A stretch of 64,000 bases of DNA, taken from positions 104,284,001 through 104,348,000 of the forward strand of contig NC_092346.1 in assembly GCF_963676685.1 (NCBI RefSeq), read 5' to 3'. Of this stretch, positions 18,001 through 21,000 are shown piece after piece. The DNA comes from Mytilus edulis. Lineage: Eukaryota. The number at the start of each line of letters is the position of its first letter. Position 1 is the first letter of the stretch. The position numbers are program-made.

Positions 18001-21000
18001 AAAATATGTTACTAACATCAAATTCTATAAAAAAAAAAATACAACTTATATATGATTATAAACTACAATGGGAATCGTATTGCTTATTCTTTAGTTTTCT
18101 CTGTTGTGGCATGTGTTCTATTATTTGTCTGTTTGTCTTCTTTCATTTTTAGCCATGGCGTTGTCAGTTTATTTTCGATTTATGAGTTTGACTGTCCCTT
18201 TGGTATCTTTCGTCCCTCTTTCCTAACCTGAGGAACTGTACAATTTTACACATGCCTTTTTACATTTCACGTTGACTACATTCACCTCTTTTCTCGATCA
18301 GCTGTTTAACCGTAATTGTCACAAAAAAATCATTCACAACAGTCAGGGCGGTCTCAAATTCTTCGGTTAATTCATTTGATAAAACCCTTTTCACCTGCCT
18401 TAACAAAATCAAAATATATTGAACGACTCTCACTGATATAATGTTCCTTTTTTTCCCTTTTTTTCATAATGCTTAACCTGTTTGACGGTAACATTATGAA
18501 AACAAGTTGTAAAGACTAAATATCGTCTTCACTAGACCATGTGTGTATATGTGTTGCCATATGTATTTTTAAGATGGTAAGAAGACAAAGATATTAACTT
18601 GATAATTAAATGCTGAAAATGTATAAATTCCTAATAATATTCAGATGATTGATTGATTGCAGGATGCTTAATGCAATGTGGCAAAAATTACGACGACATA
18701 TTTCATAAAAATAACTATCAATAAATTGATGCATCCATAGCGCTTTTCAAAATTCACTTAACCAGGTAGGCCCGAAACCTAAAATTGTCAGCATTAGATA
18801 TCTATACATTAATCAACATTTAATGAGCTTAATGCGAAACAAAGTCCTTTAAGTTGAGTTAATACAGATATGGAAAAATTTACCTGAGGCACTTTGAACC
18901 TAGGTCTAACAATTTCTAACTTAATTTACAAAATTAACCAACTGTTCTGTTATTTTTTGCTAAGGTTATGTATTTAAAAAAAAATGATATTACCAAAACC
19001 ATGATTTATATAGACTAGTGTTTTTATAATTTGTACAAATTTGTTATCTGTTTGTAATGAAACGGTCCAATCAATAGGTCACCAACGAAGTATATAATTT
19101 GATATGTTTACCTCACAGTGCATTGTTAACGCAGAATAACAACCGTTTATTCCTTTAAATTGACTATTTTATAATGGTGACCGGAGGAATACTCGCCCTT
19201 GCAATAGTATTACCTGTAGTAGGAGTACCATTACTGGTCGTTCTAATCTGGTTCTTAGTAAAACAGTACAGGAAGAAACATGCAAGAGGATTTAGAGATG
19301 TTCATACAAAATAATTCGGATAGCCTTGTGTTTTTAATACAAGTACATTTTTTGTTCATTCAAGTATAATAGTTAATTTTTCGCTTGACACAACCTGCAG
19401 ATTCTTTACAATGGAACAACATATGATTTGTATTTTGTTAATTAATCGTAGAAGGAATACCTGTCAGTATGACTTACAGTAAGGAATCATTTAAGATATG
19501 ATAAAAATATTTCGGAAACATTGTAGACATTTGCTTTGGCATTTGGGTAATTCCATTCAGTATATCAGTGATAACTCTGACTTTTGAATTGCTGTATGTC
19601 ATGAATATTTTTTTATCTTAATTCATGTTATAGTAATGATTTACCTTTATAAATATAGCTATAAATAATCGAACTTGTATACTATAAAATCAGGATCATG
19701 TTGGTACTGTTTATTTTTTTTTTCGAACTGTTGCATCCATTGGACAATGCCTATGCTAGGTTTTGGATTTTATGTATGTTTTGTATGGCTTTTATTCGTT
19801 CATTGGCCTTATTCATTTCTGTCTGTTTTTGGTTCAAAGAGATTATAGAATTATTCTACAAAACCTATGTTCTACTTTTTGTTAAAAAAAAACATTATTG
19901 AAATGAATGAATTTTTTATATCATTAGAAGACTATGCCAGTTATATTTATAAATAATGTTTCAGTAGATAATTATTATAAGAAAAATATCGAACTCGAGG
20001 TTAAATCAAAAAGGTGAATTGCAGAACAATTGATATTAGAATTATTAAGCGAACGGAAAGCAACTGTCACATTCCTGATCTGGAACAGGTATTTTCAGAC
20101 TAAAATGGTGGTTCATACTGGGTTTCATGGCTAGCCGAACCTCCCACTTAATGGCAGTACTTTATATTTCCGTTTTTAATTGGTTTGGCTCTTTACCCTT
20201 TTTATTCGAGCGTCACTTATGTGTCTTTTGTAGACCAACGCGTATCTGATGTACACAATTTTAATCCTGGATTTTTCACTATACGTTTGTTTACAATATA
20301 TTCAGACAAAATCATAAAAATTCAAGATGCATATTACATAAATCATATTATTTGCCTTTTGTTTAATTTTAACAACGTAAAAAGCAGTAGTATCACCTCC
20401 TGGTTGTAATGGAAATTATTAAGGTATTTTTAGATAGTTGTCATTTGGAAATTTCGGGAAAATTTCGTTACACAATGGCGTGATTGATCCATGGTATATG
20501 TTTATAAGGCGGTTGCGACATGAAATGGGTCAATCGAAATATCTGAATAGTGTTTACTTATTGATATCGACTGATATATGGCAAATATCCAAATGTCATT
20601 TGTACAAATATGTTTTAAGCACATAGAGTATAGATATGAAAAATGAAGGAAAAGCGTTAAATTTCATCTTTTTGAGATATTAAAAACTGTTCGGACAAAA
20701 ATAAGACGATTGAACAAAAAGCCTCATTCAGTAAAATACAACTAGTGAACAGAATCTAACGATAACACATTACCTTTAAAAACTAGAATTCTTTTTATTA
20801 TTAAAATTATCAATGCAAAAATCGCTGCATCGAGGCAAAACTAAAACTCAATATCATATCAAAACATTCTCGCGTACAATGAAATAAACTCAAGATACTT
20901 ATCCTGCTGATATGAATTTATGATATCTTACTCTCTGATATTAATGGTTGTAGTTGAGGGTAAATTTCTTTAAATAAATGTTACCTCTATAACATCCAGA

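What the first reader, a model, noticed from the sequence alone, without database searches (positions are those of the whole stretch)
19174..19314. Unannotated 46-aa membrane microprotein nested in the cluster
Seen: below the ORF-track cutoff, on the same strand between genes 3 and 4. It has a clean transmembrane helix with two prolines, an interfacial WF and a KQYRKKHAR positive-inside tail. It also has a Kozak-like start and CCAAT/TATA elements upstream. Inference: an N-out/C-in micropeptide that may be co-expressed with the Cys/His proteins, for example as a membrane anchor or partner. The functional link rests on position only.
Basis: partly seen in the sequence, partly recalled or inferred. 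Interest (0 to 1): 0.7.

Follow-up and report, generated by a model that had tools for sequence, protein, structure and literature searches.

The report
Conserved 46-residue single-pass membrane microprotein ORF
A 46-codon reading frame in an AT-rich animal genome looks like a real small gene for a one-helix membrane protein, kept in two related sequences elsewhere, but nothing ties it to the neighbouring cysteine-rich genes.

Summary
The ORF is there exactly as described (19174..19314, +, 46 aa). An ORF of that length is not unusual here: there are 153 ORFs of at least 40 aa in the window. Its content is unusual. It is the only one of those 153 with an uncharged 21-residue hydrophobic window followed by a net charge of at least +4, and only 1 of 100 Markov-2 simulations produced any such ORF. 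Its GC is 39% against 29% in the flanks. It is also the only 1 of 152 ORFs with TATA, an upstream CCAAT and A-3/G+4 together.

An exhaustive phmmer search found one 45-aa relative (76% identity, start to stop). Its cluster holds a second 45-aa ORF. Both come from unnamed Logan contigs. They keep the Met, the same C-terminus, one whole-codon indel, the apolar helix and the basic tail. No known family reaches threshold.

Best reading (about 0.45): a lineage-restricted, stand-alone smORF that encodes an N-out/C-in single-pass microprotein. Three rivals stay open: first exon of a longer gene, an exon or relic of a type I membrane gene, and a neutral ORF. The proposed link to the Cys/His genes rests on position only, and the ORF lacks their shared upstream motif. 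No transcript or orthologous DNA could be examined.

The parts
19067..19071 (+). CCAAT motif, 107 nt upstream of the ATG and 19 nt upstream of the TATA-like element
   Evidence: CCAAT occurs 0.92 times per kb on this strand. 4 of 152 ORFs of at least 40 aa have TATA with a CCAAT 10-60 nt upstream of it. Promoter function is inferred, not shown.
19091..19097 (+). TATATAA, 83 nt upstream of the ATG. It would place a transcription start near 19117-19125 and give a 5' leader of about 50 nt without an upstream ATG (the nearest ATG, 19104-19106, is only 7 nt after the TATA).
   Evidence: TATA[AT]A occurs 4.6 times per kb, and 34 of 152 ORFs have one at -120..-50. The start-site position is inferred.
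19156..19158 (+). In-frame TAA five codons upstream of the ATG. It closes the frame on the 5' side.
   Evidence: Between it and the helix the only in-frame-compatible AG is GAG at 19185-19186, which has a disfavoured -3 G.
19174..19314 (+). 46-codon ORF including the stop, with A at -3 and G at +4
   Evidence: GC is 0.39 against 0.29 in both 500-nt flanks. A GC island (at least 0.40 in 120-nt windows) spans 19164-19304 and almost coincides with the ORF. The ORF is unique in the window by tblastn and blastn.
19177..19260 (+). Residues 2-29: uncharged hydrophobic segment, the predicted transmembrane helix, with P14, P19 and W26-F27
   Evidence: Kyte-Doolittle 2.92 over the best 21 residues. AlphaFold2 helix 3-44, with pLDDT highest (88) in residues 21-30. 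G4, G5, P14, G17 and the L24-V29 stretch are invariant in the 3-sequence alignment.
19261..19311 (+). Residues 30-46: basic tail, net charge +6, predicted cytoplasmic by the positive-inside rule
   Evidence: Net charge is +4 in both relatives. K30, R33, K34, A37-G39 and R41-K46 are invariant.

Best explanation
A small stand-alone protein-coding gene (smORF), restricted to this animal lineage, with its own TATA-type core promoter.

Shown from sequence: the product is a 46-residue single-pass membrane protein. It has four uncharged residues, then a helix of about 26-28 residues, then a 17-residue basic tail.

Inferred topology: N-terminus outside or lumenal and tail cytosolic, a type III or 'N-exo signal anchor' topology.

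Inferred biogenesis: at 46 residues the helix is still inside the ribosome tunnel when translation ends. Insertion would therefore be post-translational, through insertases that handle short translocated ends (EMC/Oxa1-family), as the abstract of bioRxiv 10.1101/2025.06.05.658076 describes for proteins with short translocated domains.

Inferred and least secure, the function: an accessory or regulatory subunit that packs its helix against a larger membrane protein. The invariant small residues and the aromatic-rich inner half would form that face. The invariant basic tail would hold it at the inner leaflet or bind a cytosolic partner. This is how known single-pass microproteins work.
For: - The content is unusual for the window: it is the only 1 of 153 ORFs of at least 40 aa with helix plus basic tail, and 1 of 100 Markov-2 simulations gave any such ORF.
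- Local GC is 0.39 against 0.29 in the flanks, and the GC island matches the ORF limits.
- It is the only 1 of 152 ORFs with TATA, upstream CCAAT and R-3/G+4 together. The predicted leader has no upstream ATG.
- The frame is closed 5 codons upstream, with no good in-frame acceptor before the helix.
- The exhaustive phmmer search of 1.84 billion representatives gave P0001: 45 aa, 76% identity, aligned 1-46 to 1-45, E 4.7e-12. Its 90% cluster also holds P0003, 45 aa.
- All three keep Met1, the same last six residues and the stop position. They differ by one whole-codon indel, and every helix replacement is apolar or small.
- In a neutral simulation with the same number of residue changes, the ORF stayed intact in 31% of runs. 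Of those, only 17% kept the apolar helix and a tail of at least +4.
- No longer protein containing this segment turned up, apart from a weak tick hit.
- Class precedent: about a third of translated Drosophila smORFs carry predicted transmembrane helices (PMC4359375, abstract and passages read).
Against: - No transcript, ribosome or peptide evidence is available.
- There is no AATAAA or ATTAAA for 1365 nt after the stop; the first is ATTAAA at 20679. Only variants lie nearer: AATACA at 19336 and TATAAA at 19648.
- The relatives were found through a protein database, so only intact ORFs could be found. Their intactness is therefore biased evidence.
- Conditional on intactness, the evidence for constraint is modest (17%), and there are only two relatives, which are close to each other.
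- No DNA of the relatives was available, so there is no dN/dS and no synteny.
- The Markov test understates how often real non-coding DNA gives hydrophobic ORFs: 5 observed against 0.33 simulated.
- Across a whole genome, a 1-in-100-windows event would occur many times by chance.
- No family gives any functional handle.
Confidence: 0.45

Rival explanations
1. It is the first coding exon of a longer gene. The ATG and promoter would be real, but a donor upstream of the stop (for example GAT|GTTCAT at 19300, phase 0) would join the N-terminal membrane anchor to downstream exons that encode a cytosolic tail.
For: The only other library hit is a 906-aa tick protein (P0002, KAL1468762.1, Rhipicephalus appendiculatus). 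In it, a similar 30-residue helix-plus-basic stretch occurs twice, each time a few residues after a Met and followed by a long low-complexity region. The figures are 16/30 and 13/30 identities and library E 1.7e-4. GT dinucleotides exist near the 3' end of the ORF. There is no nearby canonical poly(A) signal.
Against: - The candidate donors are poor matches to the MAG|GTRAGT consensus (consensus recalled; sites).
- The residues after the candidate donor, and the stop position, are identical in all three sequences.
- Downstream there is no GC island with a protein-like frame before the Cys/His duplication begins at 20271.
- The tick match is a transmembrane segment, where similar composition and convergence are common.
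Confidence: 0.15
2. It is the transmembrane-plus-tail exon of a larger type I membrane protein, either living or a decayed relic. The exon would be entered through an acceptor inside the ORF, and the ATG would be incidental.
For: - Phase-1 TAG acceptors lie at 19207, 19219 and 19258.
- The nearest language-model neighbours are helix-plus-tail fragments of crumbs-like, glycophorin C, stannin and neurexin/syndecan proteins, at 0.83-0.86.
- The best Pfam match is the Syndecan domain, 14.5 bits.
Against: - All of those scores are below threshold: the Atlas calls anything under 0.9 only a lead, and the Pfam cut-off is 25.2 bits.
- Residues 1-11, which would be intron under this model, are as conserved as the rest of the helix: 8 of 11 identical to P0001, against 12 of 18 for residues 12-29.
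- No upstream exon-like GC island with a domain-like frame lies between 17825 and 19174. The only island there overlaps the hydrophobic repeat ORF 18052..18231.
- No longer protein carrying this segment appeared in 1.84 billion representatives, apart from the tick hit, or in the 'longer' word search, where 118 candidates gave none with E at or below 0.1.
Confidence: 0.15
3. It is a non-functional ORF: a chance or decayed frame in non-coding DNA that looks conserved only because the related sequences diverged recently.
For: - ORFs of this length are everywhere (153 in the window).
- The promoter-like motifs are each common in 30% GC DNA.
- Under neutrality the ORF survives the observed divergence in 31% of simulations.
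- Database ascertainment hides broken copies.
- There is no canonical poly(A) signal nearby.
Against: - The combination of features is rare: 1 of 100 simulations, and the only such ORF of 153.
- The GC rise is confined to the ORF.
- All 8 helix replacements and the indel keep the segment apolar, and the tail stays at +4 or more. This happens in 17% of intact neutral simulants.
- It is not part of any repeat within the window.
Confidence: 0.25

Closest known systems
Transmembrane smORF microproteins of animals (the 'longer smORF' class of Aspden et al. 2014, PMC4359375; for example hemotin, PMC4807881, seen in the search listing only)
   Same: Fewer than 100 codons, one predicted transmembrane helix, own start codon, and conserved over at least a short evolutionary distance.
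   Different: At 46 aa it is shorter than the class median of about 80 aa. It has no translation evidence and no sequence relationship to any named member. This is a functional class, not a homologous family.
Type III (N-exo signal-anchor) small membrane proteins such as stannin (PF09049-PF09051) and the influenza M2 type of topology
   Same: No cleavable signal peptide, a very short N-terminal end, and a helix followed by a basic cytosolic flank. A stannin cluster is among the language-model neighbours (0.84).
   Different: No Pfam match to the stannin domains at E up to 10. The tail is 17 residues, not a folded cytosolic domain. 0.84 is below the Atlas level for a lead that can be trusted.
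Helix-plus-juxtamembrane region of syndecan, neurexin, crumbs and glycophorin C
   Same: A hydrophobic helix immediately followed by a basic cluster. These are the best Pfam match (Syndecan, 14.5 bits) and the best Atlas neighbours (0.83-0.86).
   Different: The scores are below the curated cut-off (25.2 bits) and below 0.9. There is no ectodomain. The conserved cytoplasmic motifs of those families were not matched beyond profile position 37 of 64.
Phospholamban, sarcolipin and sarcolamban-type SERCA regulators (family properties recalled; Scl is mentioned in PMC4359375)
   Same: Peptides of 30-50 residues consisting of little more than one transmembrane helix, which act by helix-helix packing on a larger pump. 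This is the kind of mechanism proposed here.
   Different: In those peptides the helix is C-terminal and the N-terminus is cytosolic (recalled). Here the helix is N-terminal and the charged part is C-terminal, the opposite arrangement. There is no sequence match.
Tick hypothetical protein KAL1468762.1 (P0002)
   Same: A shared pattern through the inner half of the helix and the first basic residues: 16/30 and 13/30 identities, each copy just after a Met.
   Different: It is 906 aa with long low-complexity tails. Library E is 1.7e-4 on a transmembrane segment. Homology is not established.

Membership tests
Syndecan domain (PF01034) | Score at or above Pfam's gathering cut-off (25.2 bits) over the transmembrane and cytoplasmic domain | tested here: not met
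   14.5 bits, E 0.035, profile positions 7-37 of 64 only. All 3 of 3 alignment members match, but all below the cut-off.
Stannin (PF09049/PF09050/PF09051), SMAGP/glycophorin C (PF28228), TMEM52 (PF14979), Opalin (PF27852) | A match to the family profile | tested here: not met
   None is listed at E up to 10 for any of the 3 alignment members. HMMER's filters drop most matches above about 0.1. The Atlas feature scores are 0.78-0.85, all under 0.9.
Transmembrane smORF microproteins (functional class) | Fewer than 100 codons with own ATG and stop | tested here: met
   46 codons, in-frame stop 5 codons upstream.
Transmembrane smORF microproteins (functional class) | A predicted transmembrane alpha-helix | tested here: met
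   Kyte-Doolittle 2.92 over 21 uncharged residues. AlphaFold2 gives a single helix over residues 3-44, pLDDT 71. No dedicated topology predictor was available.
Transmembrane smORF microproteins (functional class) | Conservation of the frame across species | tested here: inconclusive
   Two related 45-aa ORFs are intact from Met to the same end. Their source organisms are unknown, no DNA is available, ascertainment is biased, and the neutral simulation gives only modest support.
Transmembrane smORF microproteins (functional class) | Evidence of transcription and translation | not testable with these tools
   No expression data for this genome are on hand.
Type III (N-exo) single-pass topology | No cleavable signal peptide, a short uncharged N-terminal end, and net positive charge on the C-terminal flank | tested here: met
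   Four uncharged residues precede the helix, and net charge is +6 in the tail (+4 in both relatives). This is by sequence rules only; actual orientation is not testable here.
Tail-anchored SERCA-regulator micropeptides (phospholamban, sarcolipin, sarcolamban) | Helix at the C-terminus with a cytosolic N-terminal part (recalled definition) | tested here: not met
   The helix occupies residues 2-29 and the charged part is C-terminal. No profile match.

The most novel reading that the evidence does not exclude
The micro-ORF is a conserved membrane partner of the orphan Cys/His protein family that surrounds it. Its basic cytosolic tail would dock the acidic N-terminal segments of these signal-peptide-less, all-beta, probably metal-binding proteins at a membrane. 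The cluster would then be a previously undescribed, lineage-specific two-component module.
Probability: 0.04. Interest if true: 0.6.

Novelty: new member of a known kind. Interest (0 to 1): 0.3.

Why it matters
If it is translated, this would be one more lineage-restricted single-pass microprotein of the kind that standard gene finders skip in non-model animal genomes. Such peptides repeatedly turn out to be regulators of pumps, channels and receptors. The case also shows how far a 46-codon ORF can and cannot be validated from sequence alone. Composition, promoter context and two related intact ORFs raise it above background. Only transcript or ribosome data, or orthologous DNA, would settle it. 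It does not open a long-standing question, and the more interesting idea of a functional module with the orphan Cys/His gene family has no support beyond adjacency.

Tried and rejected
- Word-index protein search at 'near' lengths found no candidate. This blank is uninformative, because P0001 shares nine exact 5-residue words with the query and was still not seen.
- The same search at 'longer' lengths gave 118 candidates, none with E at or below 0.1.
- Scan of bacterial and archaeal genome contigs with the 3-sequence alignment: 106 pattern matches, 0 confirmed by tblastn. There is no sign of a prokaryotic origin.
- PDB sequence search with the alignment profile: 6 matches at E up to 10. The best is a CD33 transmembrane peptide at E 0.021. 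All are transmembrane segments and none is significant.
- Complex prediction of the 22916 Cys/His protein with the micro-ORF product: 'no answer', score 0.00 against a mark of 0.34, with the alignments not used by the tool. This is neither for nor against binding.
- Two weak tblastn self-hits at 15704-15739 and 25900-25944 (E 0.16 and 0.22) raised the idea of decayed copies after each Cys/His gene. Translation shows stops flanking both, so the idea was rejected.
I did not change the code. I used a GC-island and open-frame scan instead, which is much less sensitive for domain exons.
- Structure of the Cys/His family (all-beta, pLDDT 64.7) and PDB fold search: 0 matches at E at or below 0.001. 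No handle on the neighbours' function.
- Rfam at gathering thresholds and ARAGORN over the whole window: 0 hits each.
- Literature search for 'microprotein', 'transmembrane' and 'bivalve': 1 paper, not relevant.
- Candidate splice sites were only listed.
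Full report
**Setting.** The window is 64 kb of AT-rich DNA, 27-36% GC in 2-kb steps. It has no N, no tRNA and no Rfam match. It carries transposon debris. The nearest Atlas clusters to the 171-aa ORF at 54584..55099 carry the animal retroelement domain PF26215, score 0.97. I take it for an invertebrate animal genome, not human. The phylum was not determined. A resemblance of the hydrophobic repeat ORF at 18052..18231 to repeats I recall from bivalve genomes is memory only. None of the 7 window proteins looked up is in the 15-billion-protein collection. 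Whether the micro-ORF is 'unannotated' in the source genome therefore cannot be judged.

**The observation.** The ORF is exactly as described: ATG at 19174, TAA at 19312-19314, + strand, 46 residues.
- An in-frame TAA lies five codons upstream.
- Residues 2-29 carry no charge and hold P14, P19 and W26-F27.
- Residues 30-46 have net charge +6.
- AlphaFold2, run on the three-sequence alignment, gives one continuous helix over residues 3-44. Mean pLDDT is 71, highest in residues 21-30.
- CCAAT (19067-19071), TATATAA (19091-19097), A at -3 and G at +4 are present.
- The ORF lies on the same strand between the Cys/His ORFs 17499..17825 and 22916..23203.

**Is it more than chance?** Length alone is not: the window has 153 ATG-ORFs of at least 40 aa, and second-order Markov simulations give 135 +/- 11. 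The content is.
- Only this 1 of 153 ORFs has an uncharged 21-residue window with mean hydropathy of at least 2.4 followed by net charge of at least +4 in the next 12 residues. Only 1 of 100 simulated windows had any such ORF.
- The simulation is lenient. The real window has 5 strongly hydrophobic ORFs against 0.33 simulated. The other four lie at 18006-18231 (part of which is one arm of an inverted repeat) and at 61105-61992, and none has a basic tail.
- The ORF's GC is 0.39 against 0.29 in both 500-nt flanks.
- One of the window's 43 GC islands (at least 0.40 in 120-nt windows) spans 19164-19304, nearly the ORF itself.
- The promoter-like signals are each common. Of 152 ORFs, 34 have TATA at -120..-50, 13 have R-3/G+4 and 4 have TATA with CCAAT upstream. 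Only this ORF has all three. This test is post hoc.
- The ORF has no second copy in the window.

**Relatives.** The exhaustive phmmer search of 1.84 billion representatives returned two proteins at E at or below 0.001.
- P0001 is 45 aa, 76% identical and aligned end to end (E 4.7e-12). Its 90% cluster holds one more 45-aa ORF, P0003. Both come from unnamed Logan contigs of 3875 and 2030 nt.
- In the three-way alignment, 32 of 46 columns are invariant. These include Met1, G4, G5, P14, G17, the run from L24 to K30, and the last six residues.
- The length difference is one whole codon.
- Against the window sequence, all eight helix replacements in P0001 are to apolar or small residues. The tail keeps net charge +4.
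- As a null, I mutated the ORF at random until ten residues differed, which took a mean of 16 substitutions. The frame, start and stop all survived in 31% of 20,000 runs. Of those, 17% kept an apolar helix and a tail of at least +4.
- A protein database can only show intact ORFs, so only the 17% figure is unbiased. This is suggestive, not decisive.
- No tool could give me the DNA of those contigs, so dN/dS and synteny are untested.

**The tick hit.** The second hit, P0002, is a 906-aa hypothetical protein of the tick Rhipicephalus appendiculatus (KAL1468762.1). A 30-residue stretch resembles residues 8-38 of the query twice (16/30 and 13/30 identities). Each copy lies a few residues after a Met and before a long low-complexity region. 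The library E-value of 1.7e-4 is on a transmembrane segment, so I do not treat it as established homology. It does keep alive the idea that such an N-terminal anchor can head a long protein.

**Known families.** None fits.
- Pfam gives only sub-threshold matches. The best is Syndecan at 14.5 bits against a cut-off of 25.2.
- The PDB sequence search gives only insignificant transmembrane peptides.
- The ESM Atlas neighbours are helix-plus-tail fragments of crumbs-like, glycophorin C, stannin, neurexin/syndecan, TMEM52 and opalin clusters at 0.78-0.86. All are below the 0.9 that the tool itself calls a lead only.
- The word-index searches found nothing. The 'near' blank is uninformative, because it missed P0001.
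- A scan of prokaryotic genomes found nothing.

**Stand-alone gene or exon?** The following favour a stand-alone gene:
- The closed frame five codons upstream.
- No usable acceptor before the helix; the only in-frame-compatible AG there is a GAG at 19186.
- The TATA/CCAAT pair, with a predicted leader of about 50 nt free of upstream ATGs.
- The first 11 residues are as conserved as the rest of the helix.
- The end is identical in all three sequences.

The following count against it or leave it open:
- There is no AATAAA or ATTAAA for 1365 nt after the stop. Only variants are near, at 19336 and 19648.
- Phase-1 TAG acceptors exist inside the ORF at 19207, 19219 and 19258.
- Weak GT sites lie near its end.

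I listed these sites only. The substitute GC-island scan showed no domain-like frame between 17825 and 20270, but it is insensitive.

**Link to the Cys/His cluster.**
- The five full-length paralogs are at 12070, 14563, 17499, 22916 and 32027, with a truncated copy at 21249.
- They share invariant C24, C43-x-C45, H56, C61 and C82-x-C84. They have no Pfam family and only unnamed Logan relatives.
- The predicted fold is all-beta, pLDDT 64.7, with no PDB fold match at E at or below 0.001.
- Four copies carry AGTAGGAGGAGCT about 115-130 nt upstream of the ATG. At up to two mismatches the window has 6 matches against 0.95 expected. The micro-ORF does not carry it.
- The micro-ORF also lies outside the 20271-23408 tandem duplication.
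- Canonical poly(A) signals at 18605 and 18720 separate it from gene 3.
- The one complex prediction gave no answer and is not evidence either way.

The partner idea therefore remains positional only.

**Mechanism.**
- Shown by sequence: a short uncharged N-terminus, a long apolar helix and a basic tail.
- Inferred from the positive-inside rule (established knowledge): N-terminus out, tail in the cytosol.
- Inferred from size: a 46-residue chain is released before its helix leaves the ribosome, so insertion would be post-translational. It would go through insertases that accept short translocated ends. The abstract of bioRxiv 10.1101/2025.06.05.658076 describes EMC and other Oxa1-family routes for such proteins.
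- Inferred by analogy with known single-pass microproteins: it acts as an accessory subunit through helix packing, with the invariant tail as a lipid or protein contact. Transmembrane helices are over-represented among translated Drosophila smORFs, about a third (PMC4359375, abstract and passages).
- The actual partner and membrane are unknown.

**Verdict.** The most likely reading is a real, lineage-restricted single-pass microprotein gene (0.45). The rivals are:
- first exon of a longer gene (0.15);
- exon or relic of a type I membrane gene (0.15);
- neutral ORF (0.25).

It is a new member of a known kind, and interest is modest. Supplementary files of papers were not needed. The closed collections and the lack of any eukaryotic genome or expression resource leave conservation at the DNA level, synteny and transcription unchecked.

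Noticed in passing
window 12070..12399, 14563..14868, 17499..17825, 22916..23203, 32027..32299 (+); truncated copy from 21249: An orphan family of intronless-looking 90-109-aa proteins with invariant C24, C43-x-C45, H56, C61 and C82-x-C84, and an acidic N-terminus without a signal peptide. It has no Pfam family. The only relatives are unnamed Logan ORFs (96% and 53% identity). The AlphaFold2 model is all-beta at pLDDT 64.7, with no PDB fold match at E at or below 0.001.
   Followed up: partly
window 14434-14446, 21102-21114, 22789-22801, 31903-31915 (+): The motif AGTAGGAGGAGCT (0-2 mismatches) lies about 115-130 nt upstream of four Cys/His copies, followed by a TATAAAAG-like element in some. 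The window has 6 matches against 0.95 expected. It is a likely shared cis-element of the family, and it is absent from the micro-ORF and from the copies at 12070 and 17499.
   Followed up: partly
window 20271-21737 and 21732-23408: A tandem duplication of about 1.45-1.7 kb at 75-95% identity. It carries the intact Cys/His gene at 22916 and a degraded copy at about 21249-21530.
   Followed up: no
window 18006..18231 (+), inverted partner 23443-23558: Two overlapping, strongly hydrophobic ORFs of 48 and 59 aa. Parts of the span (18124-18207 and 18077-18108) have 74-81% complementary inverted partners 5 kb away, which suggests a repeat. They show that hydrophobic ORFs in this genome can come from repeats.
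   Followed up: partly
window 57540-57800: A GC-rich (up to 0.61) near-perfect palindrome made of two inverted copies of a tRNA-like element with a GGTTCGAATCC box, flanked by (TA)n. ARAGORN and Rfam report nothing here. It is probably a SINE-type repeat pair.
   Followed up: no
window 54584..55099 (+): The 171-aa ORF has no Pfam hit at E up to 1. Its nearest ESM Atlas clusters (0.97) carry PF26215 HTH_animal in 18-63% of members. It is a retroelement fragment.
   Followed up: no
P0002 / P0004 (tick, KAL1468762.1 / KAL1468761.1): The 906-aa model contains the Met-helix-basic unit twice (residues 1-38 and about 491-524), each followed by a long low-complexity tail. It looks like two tandem N-terminally anchored genes fused in one gene model.
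   Followed up: no
tool behaviour: the search for homologous proteins at 'near' lengths reported no candidate sharing three 5-residue words. P0001 from the exhaustive search shares nine such words with the query. Very short proteins may not be reachable through the word index.
   Followed up: no
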